Shown here: piece after piece, positions 1,964 to 53,626 of the stretch
Layout: each line of letters starts with the position of its first letter
Position numbering within the stretch: the first letter of the stretch is position 1
NCBI GenBank assembly: GCA_028688325.1
Contig: JAQTYI010000001.1
Location: forward strand, 246,994-300,619
DNA from: Candidatus Portnoybacteria bacterium
GTDB lineage: Bacteria; Patescibacteriota; Minisyncoccia; Portnoybacterales; GWB1-42-6
Reading direction: 5' to 3'
Length of the DNA stretch: 53,626 nucleotides
Notes under the pieces: model-generated
Databases searched by the model: none
Told to the model about the DNA's origin: nothing
The model's input: the letters and a program-made list of their open reading frames with translations, nothing else
Program-made: the position numbers and the translations under genes

Positions 1964-2049
1964 TTGTCATTCCCGTCCCGTATCAAGTACTGGATAAACT
2001 CCAGCGGGAATTCAGGGCCTGGATCCCGGGTCAAGCCCGGGATGACAAA
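1964..2049 (+). mobile_element. Palindromic MITE-like element, intergenic copy (family TGTCATTCCCG...CCCGGGATGACA)
   Basis: It shares its termini and its internal hairpins (ATCCAGGGCCTGGAT; CCCGGG-tcaag-CCCGGG) with 36932-37049 and 53370-53439. Confidence 0.7.
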
Positions 2050-24236: not shown

Positions 24237-24323
24237 TTTATTTCCCCCTTTTCGTAAAGGGGGATTAAGGGGGATTTAAATCCTCCCTAACCCTCCTTTA
24301 CCAAAAGGAGGGTATTTAATAAA

Positions 24324-49566: not shown

Positions 49567-50472
49567 TTGAAAAAAACACATGCCATTATTTTTCTTGCGG
49601 TATTTCTTTGCTTGTTGATCGGCGGCAAAGTTTTTGCCGCCGACTACAAAATAGAAGTTCCGCTACCCGGGCTCCCGTCCGGCTCTTCCATTTCCGACCC
49701 GGGCCAATATGTTAAATATCTTTTCATCTTCGGTTTGGCTTTAGCGGGATTTCTGGCGGTGGCAGCCATCGCCTACGGCGGGATAAAATATATGCTGTCG
49801 GGAACCACTATCACCAATGTGCAAGACGCCAAGGACTTGATCTACGGGGCATTGATAGGCATTGGCTTCCTGTTGGGCTCATACCTTTTGCTGTATACAA
49901 TAGACCCGACTTTGACGAATCTGTCTCTTGTGTCATTGAATAAAATAAATATCCCGAAAATCATTGAGGACTATGACCTGCCGGCGAATATAACTGCCGG
50001 CAAAACCGCAGACGAACTGAATGCCATAATAAGTAGCGGAAAAATAAACGGGCAGGCCACGGCCTCTTGCTCCATCGGAACTTGCGGCAGCCAAACGGTG
50101 CAAGGACATACGCTTTCCTCCGGAGCGGCGGCAAAATACTCCGATCTACGGCAAAACATTCAACAGGCATGCGCCGAGCAGGGATTATCATGCGATACCT
50201 CAATATCTTCTTCCGTTGACGGCCAGCACGCTTCAAGCTGCCACAAGCAAGGCACCGCCACCAGCGGCACCTGCGGCGACTTTGTCATCACCGCGCCGGA
50301 ATGCGGCGGCAGCATCAAGTCCTGCTCCCCGGCGGTTAAAGAAAAATATATCCAAGTCGCTTCCGGTGTTTTAAGCGGCTCCGGAGCCAAAGATATCCGC
50401 ACCTGCCTGAATGAATACAAGGTTAAGGGCTCAAGCTATTCGACCGGCGGACACTTCCATTGTAATTTTTAA
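49567..50472 (+). CDS. TrbC/VirB2-like T4SS pilin-family protein with Cys-rich C-terminal domain (paralog 1)
   Basis: Signal peptide, then a two-TM hairpin module (YVKYLFIFGLALAGFLAVAAIAYGG...GALIGIGFLLGSYLLLYTIDP), then a 170-aa tail with multiple Cys. Confidence 0.6.
   Translation: MKKTHAIIFLAVFLCLLIGGKVFAADYKIEVPLPGLPSGSSISDPGQYVKYLFIFGLALAGFLAVAAIAYGGIKYMLSGTTITNVQDAKDLIYGALIGIGFLLGSYLLLYTIDPTLTNLSLVSLNKINIPKIIEDYDLPANITAGKTADELNAIISSGKINGQATASCSIGTCGSQTVQGHTLSSGAAAKYSDLRQNIQQACAEQGLSCDTSISSSVDGQHASSCHKQGTATSGTCGDFVITAPECGGSIKSCSPAVKEKYIQVASGVLSGSGAKDIRTCLNEYKVKGSSYSTGGHFHCNF
49663..49925 (+). repeat. 263-bp near-identical direct repeat, copy 1 (N-terminal module of pilin paralog 1)
   Basis: Matches 50581-50843 with a single mismatch seen (gttaaAtatc vs gttaaGtatc). 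Confidence 0.9.
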
Positions 50473-50478
50473 TCTCTT

Positions 50479-51153
50479 ATGGATATTCTGAATAAAAAAT
50501 TATTTATCTTCTTTGGCCTCATATTATGCGCCTGGCTTTTTGCCTTGCCGGCGCAAGCGGCCTATGAGGTTCAAATCGCCCTACCCGGGCTCCCGTCCGG
50601 CTCTTCCATTTCCGACCCGGGCCAATATGTTAAGTATCTTTTCATCTTCGGTTTGGCTTTAGCGGGATTTCTGGCGGTGGCAGCCATCGCCTACGGCGGG
50701 ATAAAATATATGCTGTCGGGAACCACTATCACCAATGTGCAAGACGCCAAGGACTTGATCTACGGGGCATTGATAGGCATTGGCTTCCTGTTGGGCTCAT
50801 ACCTTTTGCTGTATACAATAGACCCGACTTTGACGAATCTGTCGCCCAGGGTGCCGCCAGTCATCAATATTTCCGCGCCAGCCGCGCCGACGCCAGGAAC
50901 CCAAAACTGCAATCCGAGTTGCCAAACCGGATATAGATGCGATCCTTACAGAAACTATACTTGTGTTAAAATAGAAGTGACCACCCCTGGAATGACAGGG
51001 AATCAAACTCCCGGCCAATGCCAAGAATTCAAAACAATACCAAGCGGATGCGCGCAAGGCCATAAGGTGTGGAATCCTAATACCTGTATGTGCGAGGGAT
51101 GCGGTGACAGCTATAAATGGGATTACTCGACAAAAAGTTGCGTGCTCAAATAA
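50479..51153 (+). CDS. TrbC/VirB2-like T4SS pilin-family protein with a different Cys-rich C-terminal domain (paralog 2)
   Basis: The two-TM module is identical to that of 49567-50472. The unrelated ~100-aa tail carries multiple Cys residues (NCNPSCQTGYRCD...CMCEGCGDSYKWDYSTKSC). Confidence 0.6.
   Translation: MDILNKKLFIFFGLILCAWLFALPAQAAYEVQIALPGLPSGSSISDPGQYVKYLFIFGLALAGFLAVAAIAYGGIKYMLSGTTITNVQDAKDLIYGALIGIGFLLGSYLLLYTIDPTLTNLSPRVPPVINISAPAAPTPGTQNCNPSCQTGYRCDPYRNYTCVKIEVTTPGMTGNQTPGQCQEFKTIPSGCAQGHKVWNPNTCMCEGCGDSYKWDYSTKSCVLK
50581..50843 (+). repeat. 263-bp near-identical direct repeat, copy 2 (N-terminal module of pilin paralog 2)
   Basis: See 49663-49925. Confidence 0.9.
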
Positions 51154-51169
51154 TAAATAATATCCGCGT

Positions 51170-52351
51170 ATGAACACAAAAAAAATTCTCATTATTGCTT
51201 CTGTTTTACTGGCTCTATCGCTGGCTACACTGTTGGTTTATAATTTCTTTTTTAAGGCGCCAACCGGAACTGCTCCCCGGGAAACCGGCGTCGGAGCGCT
51301 GCCGAGTGGAAGCGCCGGGAAGGGAAGCGGCGGATCTTCTTTGCCCGGAGACACCAATGGAACCCAAGGCCAGGCGGCCTTGAAAATAAGGCCTGTCAGC
51401 AAAGAGCCGGTTCTGTCGCCGACCATCGGCGCCGACGGCCAGACGGTAAAATATTACACCCTCTCCAACGGCAATATTTTTGAGTCGGATTTTTTGGGCG
51501 GCAACCTTAAAAAAATATCCTCGGTCACCCTAAACGGCCTGCTTAAAGCGCTCTGGTCGCCGGATAAAAACGGGGTTATCGGCGTTTTTTCCGATAACAA
51601 TAAAATCAAAAAATATTTTTACAATTATATAAACAACCAGTCGTCGCTCCTCAATGAAAAAATCGGCTATGCGGCTTTCTCGCCGGACAGCAAGAAAATC
51701 TCTTACCAGTTCATCGACAATCAAAGCGGCCAAAATAACATCAGCACGGCAAATCCGGATGGCTCAAATTATAAGACCATCTTCAAAACCCGACTGGATA
51801 ATCTCATCGTTGAGTGGCCTGTCAAAGAAAAAATTTCCTTGCGCCAACCGCCAAGCGGCCTGGCCCAGGGCATACTTTATGCCATAAATTCCGAGACAGG
51901 GGATTTCACCAAGGTGCTGAGCGATATTTTCGGGCTCAGCGCGAAGTGGTCGCCCAAGGCCGACAAGATCCTTTATTCCTCAACGGACGACAGAGGAAAA
52001 AATCCCAAATTAACCCTATCCGACAGCACCGGCGCCAACTTTAAAAACCTAAAGCTGGCCGGCCTGGCTGATAAATGCGTCTGGGGCAAAGACGACCGGA
52101 CAATTTTTTGCGCCCTGCCCCAGGAGATATCAGAGAACGCCGTCTGGCCCGATGACTATTATAAAGGACTCGTCATTTTAGAGGATGATTTTTACAAGAT
52201 TAACCTGGAGACGGACACCAAAACAAAAATCCTGGGCTCTTCCGACCAAGGAAGCTATGACGCCCAGGAGCTGTTCCTCTCACCCAAAGAAGATTACCTG
52301 TTTTTCGTCAATAAGCGCGATGGCCTGCTTTATAGCATAAAAACACAATAA
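51170..52351 (+). CDS. Membrane-anchored TolB-like beta-propeller (PD40 repeat) protein
   Basis: N-terminal TM helix. Repeats such as FSPDSKKISYQF...NPDGSNYKTIF and WSPKADKILYSS. Confidence 0.6.
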   Translation: MNTKKILIIASVLLALSLATLLVYNFFFKAPTGTAPRETGVGALPSGSAGKGSGGSSLPGDTNGTQGQAALKIRPVSKEPVLSPTIGADGQTVKYYTLSNGNIFESDFLGGNLKKISSVTLNGLLKALWSPDKNGVIGVFSDNNKIKKYFYNYINNQSSLLNEKIGYAAFSPDSKKISYQFIDNQSGQNNISTANPDGSNYKTIFKTRLDNLIVEWPVKEKISLRQPPSGLAQGILYAINSETGDFTKVLSDIFGLSAKWSPKADKILYSSTDDRGKNPKLTLSDSTGANFKNLKLAGLADKCVWGKDDRTIFCALPQEISENAVWPDDYYKGLVILEDDFYKINLETDTKTKILGSSDQGSYDAQELFLSPKEDYLFFVNKRDGLLYSIKTQ

Positions 52352-53621
52352 TCCAGAAAACCAGCGCCAGGTCGTTTTTCCAAAAAGTGGTGTCTGCCAA
52401 GCCGTGAACCAGAACATATACCATCATAGCCGCCAAAAATATTGCCGGCCATGATGGTATTTTGTTTAATGATTTGAACGCCTGCCGGAAAAAAATCACC
52501 AGCAGCCAAATAAAACCGGCCAGGCCCAAAAGTCCCGCCTGCATCCACCAGGCCAGAAATAAGTTCTGGGGCTGAGGCACGGCCCACTCAAGATACGGCA
52601 CGGAAAAATATTTTTGGTATTCCAAATAATATCGCTGGAACATTCCCGGCCCGATACCCAAAATCCAGCTATCTTCCAAGATCTTTCCGGCCGCTTGCCA
52701 GATCATCAGGCGCGACTGCCAAGAAGAACGGGAAGAAGTAAACAGGCCGGCTAATTTATCGCTGTGCGCGCCATACATCTGAGAAAATAGCATAAACGCA
52801 AACGCAAGAAACAAGAAACAAGAAATAAGAAATAAATGCTTGCGATTTATTATTTTATATTTCCAAAAATAAAACAAAACGAAGGCCGCGGCCGCAAACA
52901 GTCCCAGCCAGGCGCCATAAGAATAAGTGAAACATAAAACAAGAAGCAAGAAGCAAGAAACAAAAAACAAGAAAGCTTTTTGATAAATTCTTTTTGTTTC
53001 CAACCACAAACCAACTCCAGCCAAAAGACCCGGCGCTAAAAACATTGCCAAGTGGTTGGGCGACAGATAAAAAGCCGACAAACGGCCATCAAAGGTCAGC
53101 CGGCTAAAAAAGAAATACCCCGCACTTATCGTCGCCACCGCGGCGCCGGAAGCCAACAAGGCCGAAAAAAATACTTTTACGCCGTCTTTTTCTCCCAGCA
53201 CATTATTAAAAATAGCGGCAAAGATTATCGGCGCTAAAAACCATGACTTTAAAATGCCTAACCCTGCCTTCAAGTCGGGCGAGAAGATCGTTGAAATAAG
53301 AACCCCCGCCAAGACCAATAATATCGGCCAAAATAATTTACTTTTTATAATTCTCTCGGTTCCTTTTTTTGTCATTCCCGCGAAGGCGGGAATCCAGGCC
53401 CGAATTAACCTGGATCCCGGGTCAAGCCCGGGATGACAATATAGCTGAATCTTTTTTATAAGCCAGACAAAAACAAAAACCCAAATCAGCGCCTCCAAAA
53501 CAGTCAGGGGCCACGAGCCGATCTTCAGCAAATAAAGCGGCGAGCAGAAGATGATCAGCCAGCCGCCCCAAACCGGCTTTTTCCAGGAAATAAATGCAAA
53601 AATCGCTAAGCCAAAAAACAA
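52308..53621 (-). CDS. O-antigen ligase (Wzy_C)-like polytopic membrane protein carrying an in-frame palindromic-element insert. The N-terminus may extend beyond the window.
   Basis: At least 10 TM helices and a YSYGAWLGLFAAAAF segment typical of Wzy_C. Its 3' end overlaps the convergent 51170-52351 gene by 44 bp. Confidence 0.65.
   Translation of the reverse strand: MFFGLAIFAFISWKKPVWGGWLIIFCSPLYLLKIGSWPLTVLEALIWVFVFVWLIKKIQLYCHPGLDPGSRLIRAWIPAFAGMTKKGTERIIKSKLFWPILLVLAGVLISTIFSPDLKAGLGILKSWFLAPIIFAAIFNNVLGEKDGVKVFFSALLASGAAVATISAGYFFFSRLTFDGRLSAFYLSPNHLAMFLAPGLLAGVGLWLETKRIYQKAFLFFVSCFLLLVLCFTYSYGAWLGLFAAAAFVLFYFWKYKIINRKHLFLISCFLFLAFAFMLFSQMYGAHSDKLAGLFTSSRSSWQSRLMIWQAAGKILEDSWILGIGPGMFQRYYLEYQKYFSVPYLEWAVPQPQNLFLAWWMQAGLLGLAGFIWLLVIFFRQAFKSLNKIPSWPAIFLAAMMVYVLVHGLADTTFWKNDLALVFWIIVFLCYKAGHRAY
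53370..53439 (-). mobile_element. Palindromic MITE-like element inserted in-frame within the O-antigen-ligase-like gene
   Basis: TGTCATTCCCGCGAAGGCGGGAATCCAGG...CCTGGATCCCGGGTCAAGCCCGGGATGACAA. It is translated on the minus strand as CHPGLDPGSRLIRAWIPAFAGMTKK. Confidence 0.75.
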
Positions 53622-53626
53622 TAAAA

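What the first reader, a model, noticed from the sequence alone, without database searches (positions are those of the whole stretch)
53370..53439. The same palindromic element lies in-frame in the O-antigen-ligase-like gene, in the opposite orientation but the same relative frame
This copy lies in a minus-strand gene, so it is read in the opposite orientation to the rsmA copy. Even so, translation again enters as TGT CAT (C-H) and leaves as GGN ATG ACA AA (G-M-T-K), giving CHPGLDPGSRLIRAWIPAFAGMTKK. The terminal inverted repeats therefore give the same stop-free frame from either side. This looks like an adaptation for tolerated insertion into coding DNA, here in a loop between TM helices. 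Two of the three copies in 53 kb lie inside genes.
Basis: seen in the sequence. Interest (0 to 1): 0.65.

Follow-up and report, generated by a model that had tools for sequence, protein, structure and literature searches.

The report
Selfish hairpin repeat inside ligase gene
A 69-base double-hairpin repeat of a known selfish kind (the Neisseria NTS / "Ssn-related motif" type) is read through as a floppy loop in a cell-envelope enzyme of a tiny-genome bacterium. The reading frame it shares with another copy is the one left open by the repeat's own stop codons and by selection, so it is not a special adaptation.

Summary
Window 53370-53438 is a 69-nt (23-codon) palindromic element in frame in a minus-strand WaaL/Wzy_C-like gene. 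It is read in the orientation opposite to the rsmA copy (36932-37048), and both are read TGT CAT...ATG ACA.

The element is a head-to-head doublet of two GTCAT-tagged hairpins. One unit matches the Neisseria NTS consensus with one mismatch, and both fit the published Ssn-related-motif pattern. In relatives the same units flank small GIY-YIG nuclease genes; in this genome they flank a decayed copy.

The 911-kb Patescibacteria genome holds about 117 such loci, 67 of them doublets. Twenty doublets lie in frame in real housekeeping genes.

The "adaptation" reading is not supported:
- Intergenic copies have no fewer stop codons than shuffles.
- Two entry and two exit phases are used genome-wide.
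- The open frame is fixed by length mod 3 and by the TGA in the ATGACA tag.
- The ligase copy, read the other way in the same frame, hits TAA.

The insert lies in a variable, K/R-rich loop that is the only low-confidence stretch of the structure model.

This is a new host for a known kind: CGTC-type REP / SRM doublets, RPE-like. One curiosity is that congeneric species carry flipped or different doublets at the same codon.

The parts
53370..53438 (.). 69-nt head-to-head doublet of two GTCAT-tagged hairpin units. It is translated on the minus strand as CHPGLDPGSRLIRAWIPAFAGMT.
53370..53398 (+). Unit 1: TGTCATTCCCGCGAAGGCGGGAATCCAGG. This is the NTS consensus (CGTCATTCCCGCGMAVGCGGGAATCYRG) with one mismatch, and it fits the SRM pattern.
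   Evidence: consensus from PMC11893778
53399..53408 (.). 10-nt spacer CCCGAATTAA. It occupies the position where the GIY-YIG gene sits in full cassettes. It carries the TAA that closes the TGT|CAT frame on the + strand.
53409..53438 (-). Unit 2, read on the minus strand: TGTCATCCCGGGCTTGACCCGGGATCCAGG. It fits the SRM pattern.
52308..53626 (-). Host gene, a WaaL/Wzy_C-like O-antigen-ligase-family membrane protein. Its 5' end runs 27 nt past the window; the full gene is 450 aa. The insert is at residues 75-97, in the loop at residues 70-103.
36932..37048 (+). 117-nt doublet of the same subtype, with extra nested hairpins, in frame in rsmA/ksgA (CHSRPVS...SKPGMT).
1965..2047 (.). 83-nt intergenic doublet of the same subtype (length not a multiple of 3), 10 nt upstream of a DUF4446 gene.

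Best explanation
The element is a gene-less head-to-head doublet of GTCAT-tagged hairpin repeats. This kind is known under several names: CGTC-tagged REPs, Neisseria dRS3/NTS, and Ssn-related motifs.

Its anatomy is TGTCAT + hairpin + ATCCAGG, a 10-nt spacer, then the mirror image (CCTGGAT + hairpin + ATGACA). The full form of the same cassette carries a roughly 95-aa single-domain GIY-YIG (Ssn-type) nuclease gene in place of the spacer.

The doublet entered the ligase gene within this genus. It landed in a short, lysine-rich, length-variable loop between two TM helices, most likely on the cytoplasmic side. It persists there as selfish DNA and is translated as a 23-residue Pro/Gly/Ser/Arg-rich floppy loop.

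The shared reading frame is a filter effect:
- One exit phase is always closed by the TGA inside ATGACA.
- The TG|TCA entry phase is usually closed by TCC-TGA or CTTGA.
- Length mod 3 then decides which single frame stays open.
- Only insertions that use that frame, add a multiple of three bases in net, and sit in a permissive loop survive.

Shown here: anatomy, family match, census, frames, insertion polarity, nuclease linkage and loop location. Inferred: trans-mobilisation by the nuclease, the actual insertion chemistry, and neutrality for the protein.
For: - Motif: unit 1 equals the NTS consensus with 1 mismatch, and both units fit the SRM pattern. The genome has 35 pattern hits against 1.5 in shuffles (definitions from PMC11893778).
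- Nuclease link in this genome: there are 15 GIY-YIG hits in 911 kb. C3:56230-56660 is TCATGCCGGGCTTGACCCGGCATCCAGG - GIY-YIG pseudogene - CCTGGATTCTGGCTTTCGCCAGAATGACA. Two intact 92-95-aa genes are flanked by the sister subtype.
- Nuclease link in relatives: 18 of 30 small GIY-YIG loci have GTCAT upstream and ATGAC downstream within 150 nt. Six of these have the ATCCAG...CTGGAT core, including NTS-type units identical to the ones here.
- Census: 117 loci, 67 doublets, 20 of them intragenic. The hosts are real genes with Pfam domains on both sides of the insert: LeuRS, UvrA, PriA, TopA, Mfd, MnmA, MiaA, GluRS, RsmA and three Wzy_C paralogues.
- Frames.
- Insertion polarity: G002 and about 75 of 80 homologues lack the insert.
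- Loop location: the AF2 model has pLDDT 88.2 and pTM 0.90, and its only stretch below 50 lies inside the insert. The fold matches WaaL 7tpg. The flanks are K/R-rich.
- No TSD.
- Literature: CGTC REPs form head-to-head dimers, occur inside uvrA, tRNA synthetase and other genes where they encode 20-30 aa, and include dRS3 and RPE-4/-6 (PMC3733652).
Against: - No transcript or peptide data exist for this organism; only DNA runs from landfill metagenomes were found. Translation of the insert is inferred from the intact frame and its conservation in G001 and G003.
- The nuclease nearest to this subtype is a pseudogene in this genome. Current mobility here is therefore doubtful, or depends on the sister-subtype enzymes.
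- Membership of these nucleases in the Ssn clade (cd10448) was not shown directly. The evidence is Pfam GIY-YIG only, and the best PDB sequence hit is UPF0213 at 4.7e-6.
- Tag-to-tag lengths of intragenic copies are not enriched for multiples of 3 (8/7/5). The true junctions are therefore variable and not understood.
- Different doublets at the same codon in sister species hint at targeting or replacement, which a purely 'random insertion plus filter' account does not explain.
Confidence: 0.8

Rival explanations
1. The element has evolved symmetric, stop-free ends so that it can land in coding DNA in either orientation and be tolerated, a coding-compatible design.
For: - Both window copies use TGT CAT...ATG ACA in opposite orientations.
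- Frame 1 is open in 31 of 46 strand-readings of doublets whose length is a multiple of 3.
- 40% of doublets of this subtype are intragenic.
- G003 has the doublet flipped at the same codon and still in frame.
Against: - Stops are not depleted against shuffles or against random DNA (1.87 vs 2.22 and 2.31).
- The conserved tag itself contains TGA and TCA.
- Two phases are used at each end.
- This copy has TAA in the same frame on the other strand.
- Published mutagenesis shows that the nuclease needs the bases upstream of the palindrome (PMC11893778). That explains conservation of the tag without invoking coding.
Confidence: 0.1
2. It is a classical MITE, a deletion derivative of a DDE-type or Y1 (RAYT/IS200) transposon, moved by cut-and-paste at its terminal inverted repeats.
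For: - It has inverted termini, is small and has many copies.
- Two Y1_Tnp ORFs exist in the genome.
Against: - There is no target-site duplication for k = 2-8.
- No long copy carries a transposase; the only gene found between the units is GIY-YIG.
- The two Y1_Tnp ORFs have no GTCAT or ATGAC within 400 nt.
- The units also occur singly.
Confidence: 0.05
3. The hairpin is removed or acts at the RNA level, as a mini-intron, an RNase target or a translational pause site, so that the protein lacks the insert or its expression is tuned by the fold.
For: The RNA fold is strong (-41.8 kcal/mol, z = -4.5).
Against: - All 20 intragenic doublets keep an open frame, and in 14 it is the only open frame. 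That is needless if the RNA were excised.
- Published SsnA does not bind RNA (PMC11893778).
- There are no RNA data.
Confidence: 0.03
4. The in-gene copies are kept because they serve the host. They could be Ssn cleavage sites that police incoming single-stranded DNA during transformation (the Neisseria model), or recombination hotspots that diversify envelope genes.
For: - The Neisseria NTS/SsnA system modulates transformation (PMC11893778).
- The genome has comEC.
- Three Wzy_C paralogues each carry inserts.
Against: - The hosts are mostly housekeeping enzymes with no common theme.
- The insert is absent in G002 and in most homologues.
- Nothing here tests function.
Confidence: 0.07

Closest known systems
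NTS / Ssn-related motifs (SRM) with SsnA-family GIY-YIG ssDNA nucleases (Chenal et al. 2025, Nat Commun, PMC11893778)
   Same: - The unit has the same sequence: 27 of 28 positions of the NTS consensus.
- It has the same oriented tag plus hairpin.
- It has the same motif-gene-motif cassette with a roughly 95-aa single-domain GIY-YIG gene, and the same genome-wide over-representation.
   Different: - The host phylum is Patescibacteria, which the paper does not mention.
- The tag is mostly TGTC rather than CGTC.
- Many units have long or nested loops that the SRM pattern misses.
- The paper does not treat in-frame intragenic copies.
- Nuclease activity and clade membership are untested here.
CGTC-tagged REP superfamily, head-to-head dimers (Di Nocera, De Gregorio and Rocco 2013, PMC3733652). 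It includes Neisseria dRS3 and Rickettsia RPE-4/RPE-6.
   Same: - Tagged palindromic units are mostly paired tag-outward with 1-100-bp spacers.
- No dedicated transposase is known.
- Copies occur inside uvrA, tRNA-synthetase and other genes, where they encode 20-30 aa.
   Different: - About 30% of doublets are intragenic here, in a 0.9-Mb genome.
- The first tag base is T in 88% of ends.
- The link to a GIY-YIG gene was not known in 2013.
Rickettsia palindromic elements (Ogata et al. 2000, 2002; summarised in PMC10969869)
   Same: Selfish palindromic DNA is inserted in frame in many unrelated functional genes. It is read through, and it sits at sites compatible with the fold.
   Different: - The classic RPE-1 is about 150 bp and belongs to a different sequence family.
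- The elements here are modular doublets of 55-165 nt.
- Sequence kinship to RPE-4/-6 rests on the 2013 paper and was not tested here.
REP/REPIN doublets with RAYT (Y1) transposases
   Same: The logic is the same: a hairpin unit, inverted doublets as the replicating unit, a single-copy enzyme gene flanked by the units, and no TSD.
   Different: The enzyme is a GIY-YIG nuclease, not an HUH/Y1 transposase. The tag is GTCAT, not GTAG. The Y1 genes of this genome are not flanked by the units.
Bacterial MITEs such as Correia/NEMIS
   Same: They are small, have inverted ends and many copies, and can fuse with ORFs.
   Different: Correia elements make TA duplications and derive from IS-like elements. 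Here there is no TSD and no IS parent.

Membership tests
Ssn-related motif (SRM) / NTS | Sequence fits the published degenerate SRM pattern HGTCWYN(0-2)YYVSBRHN(0-5)WNVSBRGN(0-2)RNCYNB | tested here: met
   Both units of the element match, one on each strand.
Ssn-related motif (SRM) / NTS | NTS consensus CGTCATTCCCGCGMAVGCGGGAATCYRG with at most 1 mismatch (the paper's search rule) | tested here: met
   Unit 1, TGTCATTCCCGCGAAGGCGGGAATCCAG, has one mismatch (C1 to T). There are 4 such hits in the genome.
Ssn-related motif (SRM) / NTS | Over-represented relative to dinucleotide-preserving shuffles of the genome | tested here: met
   35 hits observed against 1.5 +/- 1.3 (maximum 4) in 20 first-order Markov resamplings of the genome, which keep dinucleotide frequencies approximately.
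Ssn-related motif (SRM) / NTS | Units flank small single-domain GIY-YIG (ssn) genes on both sides | tested here: met
   In this genome there are three cassettes: one pseudogene with this subtype and two intact genes with the sister subtype. In relatives, 18 of 30 loci are flanked on both sides, 6 with the ATCCAG...CTGGAT core.
Ssn-related motif (SRM) / NTS | The nuclease belongs to the Ssn clade (cd10448, homologous to N. meningitidis SsnA) | tested here: inconclusive
   Pfam GIY-YIG at 4e-17, 92-95 aa, single domain. The best PDB sequence hit is UPF0213 BH0048 at 4.7e-6. There is no informative NCBIfam hit. Neither CDD nor the SsnA sequence was at hand.
Ssn-related motif (SRM) / NTS | The cognate nuclease binds the unit as ssDNA and cuts a few nt upstream of the tag | not testable with these tools
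   This needs a biochemical assay.
CGTC-tagged REP superfamily | Terminal CGTC tag next to a 6-9-bp stem | tested here: inconclusive
   GTC is invariant (99%), but the preceding base is T in 88% of ends and C in 7%. This is a TGTC variant of the tag.
CGTC-tagged REP superfamily | Units mostly arranged as head-to-head dimers (tags outward) | tested here: met
   There are 67 doublets with outward tags, alongside solo units.
Rickettsia palindromic elements (RPE-like behaviour) | In-frame insertion in many unrelated, apparently functional genes | tested here: met
   20 doublets and about 9 further tagged units lie in 22 genes that have Pfam domains on both sides of the insert.
Rickettsia palindromic elements (RPE-like behaviour) | Sequence homology to a named RPE family | not tested
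   The only basis is the statement in PMC3733652 that CGTC-1 and CGTC-4 correspond to RPE-6 and RPE-4.
Classical MITE | Target-site duplication flanking the terminal inverted repeats | tested here: not met
   Direct-repeat matches for k = 2-8 are at the chance level: 3/67, 1/67, 2/67, 0, 0, 0.
Classical MITE | A parent IS with the same ends that encodes a transposase | tested here: not met
   The only gene found between these ends is GIY-YIG. The Y1_Tnp ORFs are not flanked by the units. DDE families were not searched exhaustively.
O-antigen ligase / Wzy_C (host gene) | Wzy_C domain and WaaL-like multi-TM fold | tested here: met
   Pfam PF04932 at 1.8e-17. The AF2 model has pTM 0.90. The best PDB fold match is WaaL 7tpg_B, E 1.4e-6, TM 0.59-0.63. 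The substrate is unknown.

The most novel reading that the evidence does not exclude
Once a GTCAT doublet occupies a codon, the site may become a landing pad. An Ssn-type nuclease cutting just outside the two outward tags would let the resident doublet be inverted, or swapped for another family's doublet, in place. This would be a homing-like cassette exchange on single-stranded DNA.

That would explain three observations:
- The ligase codon holds the same doublet flipped in G003 compared with G000 and G001.
- The rsmA codon holds three different GTCAT doublets in three congeneric species, and an unrelated palindrome family in two more genera. All are in frame and all abut the same AAA ATA codons, while G002 is empty at both sites.
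- There is no TSD.

In-frame peptide loops of CPR proteins would then be continually rewritten by a nuclease-driven mobile system of a mechanistic class not yet described.
Probability: 0.15. Interest if true: 0.7.

Novelty: new member of a known kind. Interest (0 to 1): 0.3.

Why it matters
In-frame palindromic inserts are a main source of the odd lineage-specific loops seen in proteins of ultra-small (CPR/Patescibacteria) bacteria, and they can mislead annotation, alignment and structure prediction.

This case ties such an insert to a repeat family with a biochemically characterised partner enzyme in other bacteria (Ssn). It also gives a simple rule for which frame can be read: length mod 3, plus the TGA in the tag. 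And it removes the need to invoke a coding adaptation.

The same-codon flips and swaps between sister species are the one aspect that could lead to new mechanism.

Tried and rejected
- Adaptation for open frames. I counted stops in six frames for all 67 doublets and compared the intergenic copies with dinucleotide shuffles and with random genomic segments. There was no depletion.
- Multiples of three. Tag-to-tag lengths are not enriched for multiples of 3 in genes (8/7/5 against 13/11/7).
- TSD or target motif. No duplication was found, only a T-rich, G-poor 2-3 nt next to the tag.
- RAYT/Y1 driver. The two Y1_Tnp ORFs are not flanked by the units.
- Population variants. Four landfill DNA runs are held only as assembler contigs, and these break at the repeat. 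They show the reference orientation in X1, X2 and X4 and no empty or flipped site, but contigs cannot show absence.
- RNA evidence. No RNA runs were found.
- More flips. 80 Patescibacteria homologues of the ligase yielded no further occupied sites beyond G001, G003 and one other element in L120/L122.
- Naming the nuclease. NCBIfam gave nothing useful.
- Truncated genes. Only about 3-4 elements overlap real 3' ends, so there is no sign of many truncated genes. Most 'edge' cases are 6-nt overlaps in which my ORF caller started at the ATG of ATGACA.
Full report
**1. What is there**

Window 53370-53438 reads TGTCATTCCCGCGAAGGCGGGAATCCAGG-CCCGAATTAA-CCTGGATCCCGGGTCAAGCCCGGGATGACA. It is 69 nt long, which is 23 codons. 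It lies inside a minus-strand ORF that runs off the window end; the gene is 450 aa in the genome (C3:299301-300653). The ORF hits Pfam Wzy_C at 1.8e-17.

On the gene strand the element is translated as CHPGLDPGSRLIRAWIPAFAGMT. Single-stranded, it folds as a three-way junction at -41.8 kcal/mol, z = -4.5.

There are two more copies of the same subtype in the window:
- 36932-37048 (117 nt) lies in frame in the plus-strand rsmA gene.
- 1965-2047 (83 nt) is intergenic.

On the + strand both genic copies have the same polarity. The two genes therefore read them in opposite orientations, and both read TGT CAT...ATG ACA.

**2. What kind of element it is**

The window is C3:246994-300619 of a 911-kb, 8-contig genome. 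Its relatives carry Patescibacteria, Parcubacteria and Candidatus Portnoybacteria titles.

The element is a pair of oriented hairpin units facing each other: TGTCAT + stem-loop + ATCCAGG, a spacer, then CCTGGAT + stem-loop + ATGACA. Unit 1 equals the Neisseria Transformation Sequence consensus CGTCATTCCCGCGMAVGCGGGAATCYRG with one mismatch. Both units fit the degenerate "Ssn-related motif" pattern of Chenal et al. 2025 (PMC11893778). That pattern hits this genome 35 times, against 1.5 +/- 1.3 in 20 Markov resamplings that keep dinucleotide frequencies approximately.

Di Nocera et al. 2013 (PMC3733652) had already described this superfamily as CGTC-tagged REPs. According to that paper, these REPs:
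- mostly form head-to-head dimers;
- include Neisseria dRS3 and Rickettsia RPE-4/RPE-6;
- have no known transposase;
- occur inside genes such as uvrA and tRNA synthetases, where dimers encode 20-30 residues.

**3. Link to a nuclease gene**

The genome has 15 GIY-YIG matches. At C3:56230-56660, a CCGGG-type unit ending in ATCCAGG is followed by a decayed GIY-YIG ORF (a frameshift and two stops) and then by CCTGGAT-hairpin-ATGACA. This is the doublet architecture with a gene in place of the spacer.

Two intact 92-95-aa GIY-YIG genes (C5:11536-11814 and C5:32573-32860) are flanked in the same way by the sister subtype, which has the GTCATCCTGAG...GGATCT core.

In 60 related genomes, 18 of the 30 best small GIY-YIG loci have GTCAT within 150 nt upstream and ATGAC within 150 nt downstream. 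Six of these have the ATCCAG...CTGGAT core. They include units identical to those studied here, for example L089: TGTCATTCCCGCGAAAGCGGGAATCCAG...gene...CTGGATTCCCGCCTTCGCGGGAATGACA.

The two Y1-transposase-like ORFs of the genome have no such units within 400 nt. There is no target-site duplication at the tags.

The element is therefore best filed as a gene-less SRM / CGTC-type REP doublet and not as a classical MITE. I could not test whether these nucleases fall in the Ssn clade proper. The evidence is Pfam GIY-YIG only, and the best PDB sequence match is UPF0213.

**4. Genome census**

TIR pairing plus BLAST of the copies found gives 117 repeat loci, 67 of them doublets. I called genes greedily from ORFs and obtained 945 genes covering 89% of the genome. 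Against these:
- 20 doublets are well inside genes;
- 31 are intergenic;
- 16 touch gene ends.

Of the 25 doublets of the ATCCAGG subtype, 10 are intragenic.

The hosts are real genes with Pfam domains on both sides of the insert. They are: RNase HII, PMT, MiaA, LeuRS (2-3 inserts), FemAB, three Wzy_C paralogues, a ThiI-like protein, TopA, Mfd, ComEC, GluRS, a GT2, a GT4, PriA (3), Lgt, UvrA (3), MnmA (2) and RsmA.

Per kb, copies are still about 15 times denser between genes than within them. All loci counted, 57 sit in roughly 98 kb of intergenic DNA and 31 in roughly 814 kb of coding DNA.

**5. The frame claim**

Intragenic copies enter as TGT|CAT (C-H) or T|GTC|AT (V-I). They leave as ATG|ACA (M-T) or GAT|GAC|A (D/N-D). 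They never leave as A|TGA|CA. Open frames follow the tag-to-tag length L mod 3 almost deterministically, where f1, f2 and f3 are the frames starting at bases 1, 2 and 3 of TGTCAT:

| L mod 3 | strand-readings | f1 open | f2 open | f3 open |
|---|---|---|---|---|
| 0 | 46 | 31 | 3 | 8 |
| 1 | 42 | 30 | 22 | 0 |
| 2 | 46 | 3 | 31 | 8 |

The cause is the TGA inside the ATGACA tag, together with TCC-TGA and CTTGA near the other end.

In 14 of 20 intragenic doublets, including both window copies, the frame used is the only open frame on the gene strand.

The 31 intergenic doublets average 1.87 open frames of six. Their own dinucleotide shuffles give 2.22 +/- 0.18, and random genomic pieces of the same lengths give 2.31 +/- 0.2. 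There is no depletion of stop codons.

The ligase copy itself, read the other way in the TGT|CAT frame, meets TAA at 53406-53408.

Tag-to-tag lengths of genic copies are not enriched for multiples of three: 8/7/5, against 13/11/7 for intergenic copies.

So palindromic ends make both orientations look alike, and selection then keeps only read-through insertions. The evidence does not support a coding adaptation. Tag conservation is explained more simply by the nuclease's published need for the bases upstream of the stem.

**6. The insertion site**

Among four congeneric genomes:
- G001 has the doublet at the same codon in the same orientation.
- G003 has it at the same codon but flipped (CHSRESGNPGS...PGSRVKPGMT), still in frame.
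- G002 has a short loop with no element.

Of 80 Patescibacteria homologues, only these plus one other GTCAT element (L120/L122) have an enlarged loop.

The loop (residues 70-103 of 450) lies between hydrophobic segments at about residues 45-69 and 104-130 and has K/R-rich flanks.

An AlphaFold2 model built on 44 sequences has pLDDT 88.2 and pTM 0.90. Its only stretch below 50 is residues 74-82 of the 437-aa window protein, inside the insert at residues 62-84. The fold matches the WaaL O-antigen ligase 7tpg. Seven predicted TM helices separate this loop from the large Wzy_C loop, which is periplasmic in WaaL. Together with the positive flanks, this places the insert on the cytoplasmic side. That placement is an inference.

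**7. The rsmA site**

The codon before AAA ATA holds:
- a type-A doublet in G000;
- a type-B doublet in G003;
- a third composite in G001;
- an unrelated CCCCC...GGGGG palindrome family in G006 and G012;
- nothing in G002.

A second site, near residue 120, is occupied in several relatives. Permissive loops are therefore hit or rewritten repeatedly. Whether this reflects targeting, in-place exchange, or only tolerance remains open. It is the basis of the novel case.

**8. Limits**

Only DNA runs from landfill metagenomes hold this sequence, and they are kept as contigs that break at the repeat. No RNA run was found. Translation of the insert, trans-mobilisation by the nuclease and neutrality for the enzyme are inferences.

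I found no paper on such repeats in Patescibacteria. Earlier notes of this scan describe the same phenomenon in many CPR genomes. They pointed me to the two key papers, and I re-tested their claims here.

**Verdict**

The "adaptation" reading is not supported. This is a new host and a clear example, with one open mechanistic curiosity.

Noticed in passing
L031 (G003) versus window 53370-53438; L030 (G001): In a congeneric genome the same two hairpin units sit at the same ligase codon but in flipped order (NTS unit first), still in frame. The spacers are both 10 nt but are unrelated in sequence. This could be an in-place inversion or a second hit at the same site.
   Followed up: partly
window 36932-37048 and L050, L051, L052, L054, L068: The rsmA codon just before AAA ATA carries different repeat elements in five lineages (three GTCAT doublet types and one CCCCC/GGGGG palindrome family) and is empty in G002. 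A second occupied site lies near residue 120 in several relatives.
   Followed up: partly
genome C3:56230-56660 (outside the window, about 190 kb upstream): A GIY-YIG pseudogene (one frameshift and two stops) lies exactly between a CCGGG-type unit and a TCTGGC-type unit of the ATCCAGG subtype. An intact counterpart is in L090 (G010).
   Followed up: partly
window 53375-53399: In four landfill metagenomes the summed contig depth over the NTS-like unit is 29,000-90,000, against 4-26 for the flanking gene. This unit must therefore be extremely common across many organisms in those samples.
   Followed up: no
genome, e.g. C3:350452-350511, C5:38095-38186, C7:60007-60110, C8:224407-224496: At least six doublets end flush with the first in-frame ATG of the downstream ORF, and that ATG is the ATG of the ATGACA tag. 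This may be an artefact of calling the longest ORF, or the tag may donate a start codon.
   Followed up: no
genome L005, L007, L019 (C3:299301-300653, C3:343079-344461, C8:172402-174471): All three Wzy_C paralogues of this genome carry GTCAT doublets, at different positions. There are four inserts in all.
   Followed up: no
window 49663-49925 and 50581-50843: An exact 263-nt direct repeat, with copies 918 nt apart.
   Followed up: no
window 24244-24311: A CCCCCTTTTCGTAAAGGGGG...-type palindrome. It resembles the family that occupies the rsmA site in G006 and G012.
   Followed up: no
genome C1:7920-8597 and C3:157703-158422: Two paralogous Y1_Tnp (IS200/RAYT-like) ORFs of 225 and 239 aa with an intact HUH motif. 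Neither is flanked by GTCAT units.
   Followed up: partly
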